From assembly GCA_964565725.1 (NCBI GenBank), contig CAZMGA010000013.1:1-17228 (forward strand): a DNA stretch of 17,228 bases, given 5' to 3'. The stretch comes from an uncultured archaeon. GTDB lineage: Archaea > Iainarchaeota > Iainarchaeia > Iainarchaeales > 0-14-0-20-30-16. Shown here piece by piece: positions 1-3,166 of this stretch. The notes under the pieces are model-generated. The model was not told the DNA's origin. It saw only the letters and a list, made by a program, of their open reading frames with translations, and did not search any database. How positions within the stretch are numbered: position 1 is the stretch's first letter; every line of letters starts with the position of its first letter. Made by a program: the position numbers and the translations under genes.

Positions 1-387
1 AAAAATTTTACAATTACTTGGGATGCAGAAAAAGATAGAAAAACAAAAGCAATTATAAAATTAAATACCTCTATAGATGAAATTGATTTTGATGAAACTA
101 AATTTACTTGTGTAAAAAATAAAGATACATCTATTATATCTATATTTCAAATGTTGCCAAATGGGGAATATATATATACAACTAATGAAACTCAAATGCA
201 TTTTAAGAAAGAGGGAACAGATATATTTATATGTGTAAAAAATAGGGAAGTTCCTGCGCCAGTAGTAACTCCTGAACCAAAGCCGTTAAAACCATCTGAT
301 GATGGTACTACTCCTACAAGTAATTTTAACTTTAAAAAGTTTTATAATGGATTATTGGAAAAATTATTAAAAAAAAAAGCCCTATAA
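1..387 (+). CDS. C-terminal part of a larger ORF entering from the left edge (frame 1). It has a beta-rich domain of unknown family followed by a Pro/Thr-rich linker. It is probably the upstream part of the SGNH-amidase gene, from which it is separated by a -1 frame change at an A10 tract.
   Basis: Frame 1 has no stop from nt 1 to TAA 385-387; the ORF track lists it only from the Met at 151. The segment VPAPVVTPEPKPLKPSDDGTTPTS looks like an interdomain linker. No family was recognised for the preceding part. Confidence 0.55.
   Translation, partial: KNFTITWDAEKDRKTKAIIKLNTSIDEIDFDETKFTCVKNKDTSIISIFQMLPNGEYIYTTNETQMHFKKEGTDIFICVKNREVPAPVVTPEPKPLKPSDDGTTPTSNFNFKKFYNGLLEKLLKKKAL
369..378 (+). 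repeat. A10 homopolymer lying in the only interval (348-387) where frame 1 and frame 3 are both open
   Basis: Read directly: ...ttatta aaaaaaaaaa gccctataa. In frame 1 it reads L L K K K A L stop. In frame 3 it reads K K K S P I T K... Confidence 0.9.
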
Positions 388-1724
388 CTAAAACAAACAC
401 AATTACAACAGTAAATTCTACTGAAAATTATCTTTTTATTGGAGATTCAATTACTGTTGGTAATTGGTATAAATATTCATCTTTAAATGATGGTGCTAGA
501 TGTGCAATTAGTGGCGCAGAAGCAACAGATATTTTAAAATATTTAGAATCAGACTGTACAACAAGTAATTTAAAATATACTAGCAATTATAATTTCAAAA
601 ACTTTTCTAATTACGAAACAGCAGTAATTCATTTAGGAGTAAATGATTTGAGACATGTAAGCCCTAATGAATTGCAAAATAGAACACAAAACATCATTAA
701 TTTTTTAAACAATAAAGGAATCAAAAAAATTATATTATTAACAACTATACCTACAAAAACATTTGCAAATAGAAACATTAAAATTAAAACATATAATGAC
801 TGGATAAAAACATTAAATGGAAAAAATGGAATAACTGTTGTAGATGCAGCATCTAATTTTTATACTAATTCAAATGTAAATACTAATTATTATATTGATG
901 ATTTACACCCTAACGAATTAGGAAAAAAAGCGATGTCTGAGGCTTTAGATTTATATATTGCAAAATTGTTAGTATATGAAGGCCCCATAGATGAACCGTT
1001 TAATGCTTCTGATGAACCATTTACTTTATTTCTAATGGCTGGAACTAAAACCATTAATAGTTTTTTATCAACTTATTTATTATCTGTTGATGAGGTAATT
1101 AATTTAAAAAATACAATTGATGTGAATGAATTATATCTAAATCATAAATATTTAAGTAAATTAGATAAAAGAACAAGTTATGGTTTTGTAGTTTTACATG
1201 ATGGTGGAGATATTCCTATATGTAAAGATAATAAAGATCAAGAAAATTGCGTAATAAAAAATATAATTTTAGGACAATGGAAAAATAGTGGTTTATCAAG
1301 TCATTACTATATTGGTTGTGATGGAAAAATATTTAAATTAATTTCTGAAAATTATATAGCAATGCATGCAGGTTGTAATAAAGATTATTGTGTAAAAGGA
1401 ATGAATAATGTATCTATAGGAGTAGATTTAAGAAATTGTAGTAGATATACTGAAAATAAATCTTCTTATACGAATGCACAACATAACTCTTTAAATTTAT
1501 TATTAAAAGATATGTACTCACGAGGAATAATAAAAGAAATTGTTGATGAAACTGTAATTGCCCATTTTGAAATTAATAAAAATAAAGGGGATCCAGAAGC
1601 TGGTTTTAATTGGTTAATCATAGATGGTCTTTTAGAGGATCATAGATTATTAAGAGAAAATAATAAAGATACCCCATTTCAAAAAGCTTTAAAAAAAGTT
1701 ATAACAGATACCACATACGCCTAA
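378..1724 (+). CDS. SGNH/GDSL hydrolase domain fused to an N-acetylmuramoyl-L-alanine amidase (Amidase_2/PGRP-AmpD type) domain; putative peptidoglycan-degrading enzyme. It has no start codon of its own upstream of the catalytic blocks. The ORF-track start at 648 is a TTG inside the domain.
   Basis: Frame 3 is open from 348 to 1724. SGNH blocks: LFIGDSITVG (432-461), AISGAEA, HLGVND (GVND at 636-647), DDLHPNELG (897-). Amidase_2 signature over about 1182-1613: GFVVLHDGG, HYYIGCDGKIF, AMHAG, NNVSIGVDL, YTNAQHNSL, IAHFE, KGDPEAGFNW. The H...H...K-x-D-P pattern resembles AmpD/T7-lysozyme Zn ligands. Confidence 0.75.
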   Translation, partial: SPITKTNTITTVNSTENYLFIGDSITVGNWYKYSSLNDGARCAISGAEATDILKYLESDCTTSNLKYTSNYNFKNFSNYETAVIHLGVNDLRHVSPNELQNRTQNIINFLNNKGIKKIILLTTIPTKTFANRNIKIKTYNDWIKTLNGKNGITVVDAASNFYTNSNVNTNYYIDDLHPNELGKKAMSEALDLYIAKLLVYEGPIDEPFNASDEPFTLFLMAGTKTINSFLSTYLLSVDEVINLKNTIDVNELYLNHKYLSKLDKRTSYGFVVLHDGGDIPICKDNKDQENCVIKNIILGQWKNSGLSSHYYIGCDGKIFKLISENYIAMHAGCNKDYCVKGMNNVSIGVDLRNCSRYTENKSSYTNAQHNSLNLLLKDMYSRGIIKEIVDETVIAHFEINKNKGDPEAGFNWLIIDGLLEDHRLLRENNKDTPFQKALKKVITDTTYA

Positions 1725-2426
1725 TTAAAGAAACATATGTGCTAAAAAAAACTTTAAATTGTTATCACAAATATTATATGTTAAATAGAATGGATATTTT
1801 GAACTCAATCTAATTTCTAAAGAATTATCTAAAGGACAATTTTTTAACATGTTAACTAAGTGTGAAGAAGAAAACTTTGCTTTAAAAATTTCTTTATTTT
1901 TAATATTTAATTTTGTATTATATTTTCCATACAAACCATCAGCCAATATATTTAAAGAATCAGATTCACAAGAAAATATAATAGATTCACTTACTACTTT
2001 TGAACAAGAAAAAATATCTTTTAATATTTCAGGATTTTCTTTAATTATTACTGGATAATCTTTAGAATTTAAATCCAAAATTTTATCATCAACTATTTTT
2101 TGAGAAAATGAAAAAGTTCTTGAATATTTGCCATTAATAATAACATCTAAACTTTTGTCTTTTATGTCTAAAAATAATTCTTCATCTGAATTTATTTTAG
2201 ATAAAATTTTATTAAATTCAACAACATTGATTCCAAAAACAGTAGAGGGTAATTCGCCTTCAATTCCTTGTGCAGATAAAAAATATTCTAAATAAATAAT
2301 TTGTGCATTGTCGAAAGCAGTAATTTTAATACCTTCGTCATTAAAATGCACATTGCATTCATCTACAAACAAAGAAATTTGCTCTAGAGATTTTTTAAAA
2401 GCATCGTTATTTTTGATTTTAAACAT
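1725..2426 (-). CDS. pcn: PCNA-like sliding clamp, divergent second paralog. The ATG at 2426 is preferred; the alternative GTG at 2435 overlaps the upstream stop.
   Basis: MFKIKNNDAFKKSLEQISLFVDECNVHFNDEGIKITAFDNAQIIYLEYF... aligns by eye with the upstream PCNA and with archaeal PCNA N-termini. The length is typical of PCNA (about 233 aa). The C-terminal ...LKFFLAHMFL compares with the canonical ...FFLAPR. Confidence 0.75.
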   Translation of the reverse strand: MFKIKNNDAFKKSLEQISLFVDECNVHFNDEGIKITAFDNAQIIYLEYFLSAQGIEGELPSTVFGINVVEFNKILSKINSDEELFLDIKDKSLDVIINGKYSRTFSFSQKIVDDKILDLNSKDYPVIIKENPEILKDIFSCSKVVSESIIFSCESDSLNILADGLYGKYNTKLNIKNKEIFKAKFSSSHLVNMLKNCPLDNSLEIRLSSKYPFYLTYNICDNNLKFFLAHMFL

Positions 2427-2431
2427 AGCTC

Positions 2432-3166
2432 TCACTCATAATCTCTAGGGGCTAAGAAAAATTCTATATTTGCATTACCAATAAGATATCTTACTTTCAA
2501 AGGGGCGTTAGTTTTAATATTTAATTCAACATCAGTATCTACAGCACCTTTTAAAATATTTTGCAAATATTCTATAGAAAACATAGCAGTAGCTTCATTT
2601 TTTATATCTTTATCAGAAATTTGTTCTGAATTTAATTCTGTTTTATTTTCTAAATCACCTTGTGGACCTTTTGCGTTTATTTTAAAACTATTTTTATCCA
2701 CATTGAAAAGCAAATATGTTGAAAACAAACTTGCATCTTTTACACCATCTAATAAAGCATTAGATTTTATTTTTAATATGGCATCAAAAGCAATACTAGG
2801 ATTAGGAATTTCATTACTAGATAAATCTAATAAATTTATTGAAAAACTTCTAACATTATCTCCAGATAAAATAACATTTAATCTTTTATCTTTTACTTTT
2901 AATGATAATTTATCATTATTTTTTGCTCTTTTTAAAATACTTAATAATGATGGCAAATTAATACCTAATTTTGTGCTTCCAGAAACATCGAATTTTTCAA
3001 AAACGTCTTTAGGCATATTAAAAGTAACCATTGCAATTTGTGCGGCATCAATTGCTTTTAAGGATACTCCATATTCATTAACTACAAATTCAGCATCTTT
3101 AATCAAATCTACCATTGCATCAATACTTTGTCTAAATAATTTAGCATCAGATAATACTAACTCCAT
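2432..3166 (-). CDS. pcn: DNA polymerase sliding clamp PCNA (canonical-looking paralog)
   Basis: 244 aa. Motifs seen: MELVLSDAKLFRQSIDAMVDLIKDAEFVVNEYGVSLKAIDAAQIAMV, GINLPSLLSILKRA, and the C-terminal IEFFLAPRDYE. An SD-like AGAGGTG (complement of 3172-3178) lies 5 nt upstream of the ATG. Confidence 0.88.
   Translation of the reverse strand: MELVLSDAKLFRQSIDAMVDLIKDAEFVVNEYGVSLKAIDAAQIAMVTFNMPKDVFEKFDVSGSTKLGINLPSLLSILKRAKNNDKLSLKVKDKRLNVILSGDNVRSFSINLLDLSSNEIPNPSIAFDAILKIKSNALLDGVKDASLFSTYLLFNVDKNSFKINAKGPQGDLENKTELNSEQISDKDIKNEATAMFSIEYLQNILKGAVDTDVELNIKTNAPLKVRYLIGNANIEFFLAPRDYE

What the first reader, a model, noticed from the sequence alone, without database searches (positions are those of the whole stretch)
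1..1724. Modular peptidoglycan-type lytic enzyme (linker + SGNH esterase + Amidase_2) in an archaeal genome
The Amidase_2 domain keeps the Zn/catalytic signature: H in VLHDGG, H in IAHFE, and K-G-D-P in KGDPEAGF, as in AmpD/T7-lysozyme-type MurNAc-L-Ala amidases. Archaea have no murein, and pseudomurein lacks the MurNAc-L-Ala bond. The likely substrate is therefore a bacterial wall, which suggests an antibacterial, predatory or host-interaction function. The fused SGNH domain could be a peptidoglycan O-acetyl-esterase-type activity that removes a modification blocking lysis. An upstream beta-rich domain plus a Pro-rich linker suggests a secreted or surface-tethered modular protein. Peptidoglycan hydrolases have been reported in some archaea, so the class is not unprecedented. 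This particular architecture and its frame-broken state deserve attention.
Basis: partly seen in the sequence, partly recalled or inferred. Interest (0 to 1): 0.7.

Follow-up and report, generated by a model that had tools for sequence, protein, structure and literature searches.

The report
Poly-A-gated wall-lytic enzyme in DPANN archaeon
A tiny symbiont-type archaeon carries a modular enzyme built to cut bacterial cell walls, and in several related lineages its cutting domains sit out of frame behind a run of A's, which may work as an on/off switch.

Summary
Window 1-1724 (+) encodes one 5'-truncated gene: a beta-rich module, a Pro-rich linker and a short helix (frame 1), then an SGNH hydrolase (Pfam E 1.2e-15) and an Amidase_2 domain (E 5e-14) in frame 3. 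The frames join at an A10 run (369-378). The Zn ligands His, His and Asp and the catalytic Lys are present. The AmpD general-base Glu is Asp throughout this clade. The host is archaeal: DPANN, Iainarchaeota/Diapherotrites (RadA 82% identical).

The closest relatives of both domains sit in archaeal proteins, some giant, that also carry SLT, glucosaminidase or M74 murein-hydrolase domains. One relative is SGNH+SLT+Amidase_2. A bacterial-wall target is therefore well supported but untested. Peptidoglycan hydrolases in DPANN and other archaea are already published, so the enzyme class is not new.

The new point is the frame break. Five lineages are broken at the same module junction, four of them at pure A9-A10 runs. 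One base restores 270-850 aa ORFs. Elsewhere these genomes interrupt 20 of 21 Lys-Lys-Lys runs with AAG. The N-module is hypervariable between strains. I read this as a phase-variable or slippage-dependent switch; read-level data are needed to prove it.

The parts
1..246 (+). Frame 1: 3' part of the N-terminal module. The 5' end is lost at the contig edge. It is beta-rich and matches no known family. It is the hypervariable, presumed targeting part.
   Evidence: Translation. No Pfam or NCBIfam hit. The single-sequence AF2 model shows beta strands but pLDDT is only 42. All 6 differences from strain contig L007 fall at 121-323, and all are non-synonymous.
247..321 (+). Pro/Thr-rich linker, EVPAPVVTPEPKPLKPSDDGTTPTS
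   Evidence: Direct reading. Comparable low-complexity linkers precede the junction in L008 and L010.
322..378 (+). Junction motif NFNFKKFYNGLLEKLLKKK. It is a predicted short amphipathic helix ending in Lys-Lys-Lys.
   Evidence: The motif 'FW..FF...KKK' is conserved at module boundaries in L008, L010, P0004, L004, L102 and P0021. The helix appears in the model, at low confidence.
369..378 (+). A10 homopolymer, the site of the frame change. The frame-1 reader must shift -1, or the tract must gain one A.
   Evidence: The equivalent pure A9-A10 tract is present in L007, L008, L010-12, L013 and L014.
385..387 (+). TAA stop of frame 1, two codons after the run. It ends the short, N-module-only product.
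   Evidence: The same arrangement occurs in L008 (TAG) and L010 (TAA).
435..929 (+). SGNH/GDSL hydrolase domain in frame 3. Ser of GDS is at 447-449. GVND is block III, and DDLH is the DxxH block.
   Evidence: Pfam PF13472, E 1.2e-15. PDB 3p94 and 7toj alignments. Foldseek matches to GDSL, PAF-AH and sialate esterases.
972..1184 (+). Conserved inter-domain segment (YEGPIDEPF...NTIDVNELYLNHKYL) that precedes the amidase core. It is also present in amidase-only relatives.
   Evidence: Alignments A4 and A6. Partly confident in the AF2 model.
1185..1598 (+). Amidase_2 domain, a Zn-dependent MurNAc-L-Ala amidase fold. Catalytic positions: His 1197-1199, Asp 1425-1427 (at the AmpD Glu position), His 1563-1565, Lys 1584-1586, Asp 1590-1592. 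Six Cys are conserved.
   Evidence: Pfam PF01510, E 5e-14. PDB AmpDh2, AmiD and AmpD. Alignment A6. AF2 pLDDT 85-98 and Foldseek AmpD 2y28, LysC, Ph2119 and PGRP-SA.
1599..1724 (+). Clade-specific C-terminal extension (GL..DHR...TPFQ.A) and the TAA stop at 1722-1724. The stop abuts the stop of the convergent PCNA gene at 1725.
   Evidence: Alignments A4, A6 and A7. ORF list.

Best explanation
The gene encodes a secreted or surface-tethered modular murein hydrolase of a DPANN archaeon (Iainarchaeota/Diapherotrites).

Modules and proposed roles:
- An N-terminal, rapidly diversifying module with a flexible Pro-rich linker presumably recognises the target cell surface.
- An SGNH esterase probably removes an acyl modification of the glycan. 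O-acetyl on MurNAc is the best guess.
- A Zn-dependent Amidase_2 domain (His/His/Asp metal site, Lys, and Asp at the general-base position) cuts stem peptides from the glycan.
- Because the producer has no murein, the target is a neighbouring or host bacterium's wall. The purpose would be attachment, entry, predation or nutrient scavenging.

Proposed control of expression: the two catalytic domains lie one frame off, behind a pure A10 tract at the module junction. Standard decoding yields only the N-module, which stops two codons after the tract. The full lytic protein is made only in one of two ways. Either the tract length changes by one base in DNA (phase variation), or an extra A or a -1 shift is introduced during transcription or translation.

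Shown: the domains, the catalytic residues, the archaeal host, the recurrence of the junction break, and tract retention against a genome-wide avoidance.

Inferred: secretion of this copy, the substrate, the esterase specificity, and that the tract acts as a switch.
For: Domains and residues.

Host.

Murein link:
- The closest relatives of the amidase are the C-termini of P0020, P0021 and P0022 (2,000-2,900 aa), P0023/P0165 and P0026.
- These proteins combine it with SLT, glucosaminidase or Peptidase_M74.
- P0035 is SLT plus this SGNH domain. P0029 is SGNH+SLT+Amidase_2.
- P0021 lies in the same syntenic archaeal neighbourhood: MTase, AsnS/Dph6, L35Ae, VIT1, MFS and FAD-oxidoreductase, with TFB and SepF nearby.
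- NCBI names relative P0041 as coming from a Nanoarchaeota archaeon.

Export:
- P0003, P0004, P0021 and the L008 423-aa ORF have signal peptides.
- Six Cys are conserved in the amidase.

Switch:
- Frame breaks at the same junction occur in the window and L007 (A10), L008 (A10), L010/L011/L012 (A9), L014 (A9) and L102 (A4G5).
- L013 (A10) and L004 (no tract) are in frame.
- A one-base change restores stop-free stretches of 574, 850, 749, 425 and 272 aa.
- There is no start codon between the tract and the catalytic Ser.
- The downstream ORFs are intact, with dN/dS about 0.36.
- Lys is AAA in 91-94% of codons, yet 20 of 21 KKK runs in non-lytic ORFs carry an AAG. The junction tract is pure in 5 of 5 lineages.
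- The other A9/T9 runs in the same contigs are in frame.

N-module diversification:
- Six of six strain differences cluster at 121-323, and all are non-synonymous.
- L004 shows a whole-module swap, and contigs L001 and L005 break at position 429.
Against: - No activity, substrate or localisation data exist.
- The 5' end of this copy is missing, so its signal peptide is inferred from relatives.
- The general-base Glu is replaced by Asp. The change is conservative and clade-wide, but its effect is untested.
- The SGNH domain has no specific match to known peptidoglycan O-acetyl esterases.
- Frame corrections differ in direction: three lineages need +1 nt and two need -1 nt. One break is at A4G5, not a long run. 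This argues against a single programmed ribosomal shift and fits plain mutational breakage.
- No tract-length variation was observed within one population, because reads were not available.
- dN/dS of 0.36-0.5 indicates only moderate constraint.
- L101 looks degraded.
- Lineages are related, so the 5/5 versus 1/21 contrast overstates independence.
Confidence: 0.6

Rival explanations
1. Plain pseudogene. The long A-run is simply the most mutable site of a dispensable accessory gene, and each lineage has recently and independently lost the gene there. Nothing downstream is expressed.
For: The frame break itself. L101 shows real decay, with deletion of the SGNH N-half and Zn-His changed to Asn. 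Constraint is moderate, with dN/dS 0.36-0.5. Corrections have mixed direction. The gene sits in a variable island with toxin-antitoxin genes.
Against: Five lineages keep 270-470 codons downstream stop-free in 24-29% GC DNA. All catalytic residues are retained. The breaks never occur elsewhere in the 1.3-2.5 kb genes. The tract stays pure although these genomes otherwise break up such runs. The window and L010 lineages (dS about 0.8) share the same break type.
Confidence: 0.17
2. Homopolymer sequencing or assembly error. The true tract is one base different and the gene is simply intact.
For: Homopolymers of 9-10 are the classic site of indel errors. All the evidence comes from metagenome assemblies.
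Against: The same length is seen in the NCBI contig and in a Logan contig that differs by SNPs. L010, L011 and L012 agree across three assemblies. A9/T9 runs inside core genes of the same contigs are in frame. One break is at A4G5. Errors would have to reach majority in every assembly.
Confidence: 0.07
3. The enzyme acts on an archaeal host envelope (pseudomurein or another glycan-peptide wall), not on bacterial murein. This would match the archaeal hosts of all cultivated DPANN.
For: Established knowledge: cultivated DPANN are episymbionts of archaea.
Against: The partner domains in relatives (SLT, glucosaminidase, Peptidase_M74) are murein-specific families. Amidase_2 chemistry targets the lactyl-L-Ala amide, which pseudomurein lacks (established knowledge). 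The known pseudomurein-cutting enzymes PeiW and PeiP belong to a different fold.
Confidence: 0.1
4. The downstream ORF is translated on its own as a cytoplasmic AmpD-like enzyme that processes imported muropeptides for nutrition.
For: The best sequence and structure matches are AmpD, AmpDh2 and AmiD. DPANN depend on scavenging.
Against: There is no start codon before the catalytic Ser of the SGNH domain. Six conserved Cys suggest disulfides. Relatives have in-frame fusions to signal-peptide-bearing modules.
Confidence: 0.04

Closest known systems
AmpD / AmpDh2 / AmiD and T7-lysozyme-type Amidase_2 enzymes (PF01510), including phage endolysins LysC and Ph2119 and PGRPs
   Same: Same fold (Foldseek probability 1.0 to 2y28, 6ssc, 6su5 and 5xz3). 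Same His/His/Asp zinc site and catalytic Lys. The profile score is twice the Pfam cut-off.
   Different: Asp replaces the general-base Glu. There are six conserved Cys, a conserved roughly 70-aa N-terminal lead-in (YEG.LDEPF...) and a C-terminal GL.DHR..TPFQ extension. The host is archaeal. Only 22-30% identical to solved structures. The NCBIfam AmpD equivalog scores far below its cut-off (40.5 against 143).
Large murein-lytic surface proteins of DPANN archaea (Woesearchaeota AR20-type lytic transglycosylases; Vigneron 2022, PMC9723730; also PMC10936187)
   Same: DPANN host. Predicted extracellular murein degradation. Relatives of this gene are 2,000-2,900-aa proteins with SLT domains.
   Different: This gene has an amidase plus an esterase instead of a transglycosylase, and it is much smaller. 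It belongs to Iainarchaeota rather than Woesearchaeota. It carries a homopolymer frame break that those reports do not describe.
Archaeal antibacterial peptidoglycan hydrolases (Woldo and Danwoldo of Halogranum salarium; Strock et al. 2025, PMC12352652)
   Same: An archaeon-encoded, exported, modular murein hydrolase, proposed to act on bacteria.
   Different: Different catalytic domains: zoocin-A-type peptidase or glucosaminidase there, Amidase_2 plus SGNH here. Those proteins use recognised PG_binding domains. The N-module here matches no known binding family. No activity data exist for this gene.
Peptidoglycan O-acetyl esterase Ape1 (SGNH) working with lytic transglycosylases in Neisseria (recalled from my own knowledge, not checked in a paper here)
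   Same: SGNH catalytic blocks. Genetic or physical association with SLT and other murein hydrolases in relatives.
   Different: No specific sequence or structure match to Ape1 was obtained. The closest solved SGNH structures are generic. Substrate untested.
Homopolymer contingency loci and slippage-dependent genes: phase-variable surface genes of Neisseria, Campylobacter and Mycoplasma, inlA poly(A) (PMC2831843), transcriptional slippage at A9-11 (PMC1088944), and -1 frameshifting in archaeal fucA1 (PMC8211752)
   Same: A pure A9-A10 tract inside a surface/interaction gene. On and off states occur among relatives. The 0-frame stop lies just after the tract. A slippery A AAA AAA heptamer is present.
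   Different: The tract lies at an internal module junction, not near the 5' end, so the off state still yields a defined N-module protein. The host is an archaeon. No read-level or transcript evidence exists yet. No canonical downstream stimulator was found.

Membership tests
Amidase_2 (PF01510) zinc MurNAc-L-Ala amidase | Profile match above the curated threshold | tested here: met
   53.2 bits against a cut-off of 26, E 5e-14, profile positions 7-130 of 131.
Amidase_2 (PF01510) zinc MurNAc-L-Ala amidase | Three zinc ligands (His, His, Asp/Cys) and the catalytic Lys | tested here: met
The second His, the Lys and the Asp are confirmed against PDB AmpDh2.
Amidase_2 (PF01510) zinc MurNAc-L-Ala amidase | General-base Glu of the AmpD/AmiD subgroup (AmpD E116) | tested here: not met
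   Asp at this position ('SIGVDL'). It is Asp in all clade members. T7 lysozyme also lacks this Glu, so it does not define the whole family.
Amidase_2 (PF01510) zinc MurNAc-L-Ala amidase | Fold | tested here: met
   AF2 pLDDT 85-98 over the domain. Foldseek top hits are AmpD, LysC, Ph2119 endolysin and PGRP-SA.
Amidase_2 (PF01510) zinc MurNAc-L-Ala amidase | Hydrolysis of the MurNAc-L-Ala bond | not testable with these tools
   Needs an enzyme assay.
SGNH/GDSL hydrolase (PF13472) | Profile match and the four catalytic blocks (Ser, Gly, Asn, Asp-x-x-His) | tested here: met
   58.9 bits against a cut-off of 32.9. GDS, SGAE, GVND and DDLH are read directly and aligned to 3p94.
Peptidoglycan O-acetyl esterase (Ape1-type) | Specific similarity to characterised O-acetyl-PG esterases, or activity on O-acetylated PG | tested here: inconclusive
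   Only generic SGNH matches were found. Indirect support comes from SGNH-SLT(-Amidase_2) fusions in relatives.
Programmed -1 ribosomal frameshift site | Slippery heptamer X XXY YYZ in the 0 frame | tested here: met
   A AAA AAA within TTA AAA AAA AAA GCC.
Programmed -1 ribosomal frameshift site | Conserved stimulatory RNA structure 5-9 nt downstream | tested here: not met
   Predicted stems start about 20 nt downstream in the window (z -3.0) and in L010 (z -3.9). L008 has none (z -0.8).
Programmed -1 ribosomal frameshift site | Same frame relationship conserved in homologues | tested here: inconclusive
   Three lineages need -1, two need +1, and two are in frame.
Homopolymer phase-variable (contingency) locus | Long pure homopolymer in the coding sequence, retained in homologues | tested here: met
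   A9-A10 in 5 of 5 junction-bearing lineages. In other ORFs, 20 of 21 KKK runs are interrupted by AAG.
Homopolymer phase-variable (contingency) locus | Tract-length polymorphism giving on and off states within a population | not testable with these tools
   Only consensus contigs were available. Between lineages, L010 (A9, off) and L013 (A10, on) differ by one A.
Modular peptidoglycan hydrolase in the sense of Strock et al. 2025 (catalytic domain plus recognised PG-binding domain) | A recognised peptidoglycan-binding Pfam domain fused to the catalytic domain | tested here: not met
   The N-modules of the window, L008, L010, L014, P0003 and P0004 have no Pfam hit. The definition was taken from PMC12352652 as read.

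The most novel reading that the evidence does not exclude
The A-tract is a selected switch. DPANN archaea of this lineage would keep a hypervariable targeting module permanently expressed. They would couple it to a wall-lytic warhead (esterase plus amidase) only in a stochastic subpopulation or fraction of transcripts, through homopolymer slippage. This would be the first contingency-locus or slippage-controlled 'attack' gene described in archaea, and a handle on how DPANN cells choose and breach bacterial partners.
Probability: 0.35. Interest if true: 0.75.

Novelty: new variant of a known kind. Interest (0 to 1): 0.55.

Why it matters
Whether DPANN archaea attack or attach to bacteria, and with what tools, is still argued from gene lists. 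This locus contributes several things:
- A compact, expressible two-enzyme candidate (esterase plus amidase).
- A clade-specific Asp-variant Amidase_2.
- Evidence that its targeting module diversifies between strains.
- A recurrent single-base frame gate, which can be tested directly from existing read sets and metatranscriptomes.

If the gate is real, it would extend homopolymer-based phase variation or slippage control to archaeal interaction genes. Such control is well known in host-adapted bacteria.

It also shows that surveys requiring a recognised binding domain, or an intact ORF, will miss this family.

Tried and rejected
- Pattern scans for family members in GTDB species representatives, JGI metagenome contigs and IMG/VR found nothing. 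All relatives therefore came from the protein searches.
- The look-up of the giant protein P0022 was not on record.
- No tRNA or Rfam element lies in the window.
- The N-terminal module has no Pfam or NCBIfam family. Its single-sequence AF2 model is unreliable (pLDDT 42), so the 'beta-rich' description rests on sequence pattern only.
- The SGNH half of the 448-aa model is low-confidence. I did not use it for specificity.
- A conserved frameshift-stimulating RNA structure was sought and not found convincingly.
- Viral origin was rejected. PHROG endolysin and amidase hits are only about 1e-10, and the neighbours are core archaeal genes.
- An alternative genetic code was rejected, because all neighbouring ORFs are intact under table 11.
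Full report
**1. What is in the sequence**

Window 1-1724 (+) holds one gene that runs off the 5' end of the record. The window is the whole 17,228-bp NCBI contig.

Frame 1 is open from base 1 to the TAA at 385-387. It encodes three parts:
- a beta-strand-patterned segment;
- a Pro/Thr-rich linker, EVPAPVVTPEPKPLKPSDDGTTPTS;
- a short amphipathic stretch ending in KKK.

Frame 3 is open from 348 to the TAA at 1722-1724. The two frames meet in an A10 run at 369-378, the longest homopolymer in the window. Inserting one A gives a stop-free 574-codon reading. Frame 3 has no ATG, GTG or TTG before 648. That position is already past the SGNH catalytic serine (447-449), so the downstream domains cannot be made by ordinary initiation.

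**2. Domains and residues**

Pfam gives two hits, both well above the curated cut-offs:
- Lipase_GDSL_2 at nt 435-929, E 1.2e-15;
- Amidase_2 at nt 1185-1598, E 5e-14.

The SGNH blocks (GDS, Gly, GVND, DxxH) are all present.

In the amidase, the His of VLHDGG, the His of AHFE, and the Lys and Asp of KGDP align with the zinc ligands and catalytic Lys of T7 lysozyme and AmpD. The second His, the Lys and the Asp are independently confirmed against PDB AmpDh2.

The AmpD general-base Glu is Asp here. It is Asp in every clade member, so it is a lineage trait.

An AlphaFold model is confident over the amidase (pLDDT 85-98) and weak over the SGNH half. Foldseek finds two groups of matches:
- for the amidase: AmpD, the endolysins LysC and Ph2119, and PGRP-SA;
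- for the SGNH part: generic GDSL, PAF-AH and sialate esterases.

Six Cys are conserved in the amidase, which suggests an extracytoplasmic protein.

**3. Host**

The neighbours are two PCNA genes, an FAD oxidoreductase, MFS, VIT1, L35Ae, an AsnS-Dph6 fusion, a methyltransferase, PriL, TFB, ThiI and RadA. RadA is 82% and 80% identical to two Ca. Diapherotrites MAGs, and 63-70% identical to most of the other loci returned, chiefly Ca. Iainarchaeum MAGs. GC is about 24%. The host is a DPANN archaeon of the Iainarchaeota/Diapherotrites.

**4. Relatives and what they say about function**

Close family members are few (56-66% identity) and modular:
- signal peptide + N-module + amidase (P0003);
- signal peptide + large N-module + SGNH (P0004);
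- SGNH + amidase (L010-12);
- N-module, then 2xSGNH, then a separate amidase (L008).

They usually sit beside the same MTase-Dph6-L35Ae block.

An exhaustive HMMER scan found only 13 proteins below 1e-30. The next-closest amidase domains are mostly the C-termini of large proteins:
- P0020, P0021 and P0022 (2,000-2,900 aa);
- P0023, whose cluster includes the 2,930-aa P0165;
- P0026 (1,355 aa, where the amidase lies mid-protein).

P0022, P0023 and P0026 also carry SLT, glucosaminidase and Peptidase_M74 domains respectively. P0035 joins SLT to this SGNH domain. P0029 is SGNH+SLT+Amidase_2.

P0021 lies in the same syntenic archaeal neighbourhood, flanked by AbiEii pairs. NCBI labels relative P0041 as Nanoarchaeota.

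Both domains therefore belong to a DPANN tool-kit of murein-specific hydrolases. A bacterial-wall substrate is the best-supported inference. The O-acetyl-esterase role of the SGNH domain is plausible because lytic transglycosylases need a free C6-OH (established knowledge). It is not shown.

**5. The frame break is a family feature**

The same junction sits after a 'FW..FF...KKK'-type motif and before the catalytic part. It is out of frame in five lineages:

| Locus | Tract at junction | Fix needed |
|---|---|---|
| Window and L007 | A10 | +1 A |
| L008 | A10 | +1 A |
| L010, L011, L012 (three assemblies) | A9 | +1 A |
| L014 | A9 | -1 A |
| L102 | A4G5 | -1 nt |
| L013 | A10 | in frame |
| L004 (same species as the window) | no tract | in frame |

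One base restores stop-free stretches of 574, 850, 749, 425 and 272 aa. In every +1 A case the 0-frame stop lies two codons after the tract.

Sequencing error is unlikely for three reasons. The lengths are reproduced across assemblies and across strains that differ by SNPs. The A9/T9 runs inside core genes of the same contigs are in frame. One break is at A4G5 rather than a long run.

These genomes use AAA for 91-94% of Lys codons. Even so, they interrupt 20 of 21 Lys-Lys-Lys runs in other ORFs with AAG. The junction tract is pure in 5 of 5 lineages. A hypergeometric calculation gives p of about 9e-5, but this is optimistic because the lineages are related.

Downstream ORFs stay intact with dN/dS of about 0.36. 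The value is 0.51 for the 90 codons that have no start codon of their own.

A canonical frameshift stimulator was not found, and the direction of the required shift differs among lineages. I therefore favour tract-length phase variation and/or transcriptional slippage over a dedicated ribosomal frameshift. Simple recurrent breakage of a dispensable gene remains a real alternative; L101 is visibly degraded.

**6. The N-module diversifies**

The window and L007 differ at only six positions in 3,243 nt. All six lie within 121-323, and all are non-synonymous. L004 replaces the whole module upstream of position 425. Contigs L001 and L005 end exactly at 429, an assembly-graph branch point. This is the behaviour expected of a target-recognition part.

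**7. Comparison with the literature**

- Murein-lytic transglycosylases in Woesearchaeota and other DPANN, and the 'vampiristic' reading, are published (PMC9723730; PMC10936187).
- About 5% of archaeal genomes carry peptidoglycan-hydrolase homologues, which are prominent in Nanoarchaeota. Two haloarchaeal enzymes of this kind were studied experimentally, and one of them (Woldo) was shown to kill a halophilic bacterium (PMC12352652).
- Homopolymer switches and slippage are well described in bacteria (PMC2831843; PMC1088944).
- In archaea, programmed frameshifting is established only for fucA1 (PMC8211752 and PMC8037382).

The enzyme class is therefore known. Three things are new here:
- the particular clade: an Asp-variant amidase with its lead-in and tail, paired with SGNH, in Iainarchaeota;
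- its unannotated hypervariable N-module;
- the recurrent homopolymer gate.

**8. Verdict**

Novelty is a new variant of a known kind. Interest is moderate and rests mainly on the possible switch, which can be tested from existing read data.

Noticed in passing
window 1725-2435 (-) and 2432-3166 (-): Two tandem PCNA genes overlap by 4 nt. The one next to the lytic gene is divergent (Pfam E about 1e-6 to 1e-7, against 1e-17 for the other). The pair is conserved in all strain contigs. The stop of the lytic gene (1722-1724) abuts the stop of the convergent PCNA gene (1725-1727), with no intergenic base.
   Followed up: partly
window 6915-8978 (+): A single 687-aa ORF fuses a glutamine-amidotransferase/asparagine-synthase part to a diphthamide-synthase (Dph6-like) part. 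The fusion is conserved in L001, L008, L010 and L100.
   Followed up: no
window-wide, plus L008, L010, L013, L014, L020: AAG makes up only 6-9% of Lys codons, yet it is placed inside 20 of 21 Lys-Lys-Lys runs of ordinary ORFs (typically AAA AAG AAA). This indicates genome-wide selection against A9 or longer runs in this lineage.
   Followed up: yes
L008 345-1668; L100 8397-9723 and 16356-17823; L013 4489-5784; L014 1341-2588: In relatives the lytic genes lie next to the MTase-Dph6-L35Ae block rather than next to PCNA. They are flanked by AbiEii toxin-antitoxin pairs or AAA_14/DUF4143 ATPases. The locus behaves as a variable island whose position differs from that in the window.
   Followed up: partly
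L015 8001-9155 (P0011); L018 2286-3437 (P0010): More distant amidases of the same clade (35-37% identity) start with what looks like an archaeal class III (type IV pilin-like) signal: K/R-G-A/T followed by a hydrophobic stretch. They lie in long same-strand runs of unannotated small genes. In L015 these sit next to a 2,088-aa CarboxypepD_reg protein.
   Followed up: no
L008 3344-4537: The SGNH gene of this relative holds two tandem SGNH domains. The second has GTS instead of GDS at block I. Its called TTG start sits directly before FIGDS, although the frame is open back to the A10 tract.
   Followed up: partly
window 13356-14405 (-): A 349-aa membrane-anchored protein with a Cys-containing thioredoxin/GILT-like segment (weak Pfam hit, E 0.009). 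It could be an extracytoplasmic disulfide oxidoreductase, relevant to the Cys-rich secreted proteins of this organism.
   Followed up: no
window 9541-9879 (-): A 112-aa Arg-rich ORF with no family match, in a 24% GC, Lys-rich genome. The composition is unusual and the function is unknown. It is conserved in L001.
   Followed up: no
window 322-378; L008, L010, L013, L004, L102; P0021 around aa 697: A short motif (G)FW..FF/FY...L..(KKK) recurs exactly at boundaries between N-modules and catalytic modules. It also occurs inside the giant protein P0021. Its role (hinge, membrane-active helix or processing site) is unknown.
   Followed up: partly
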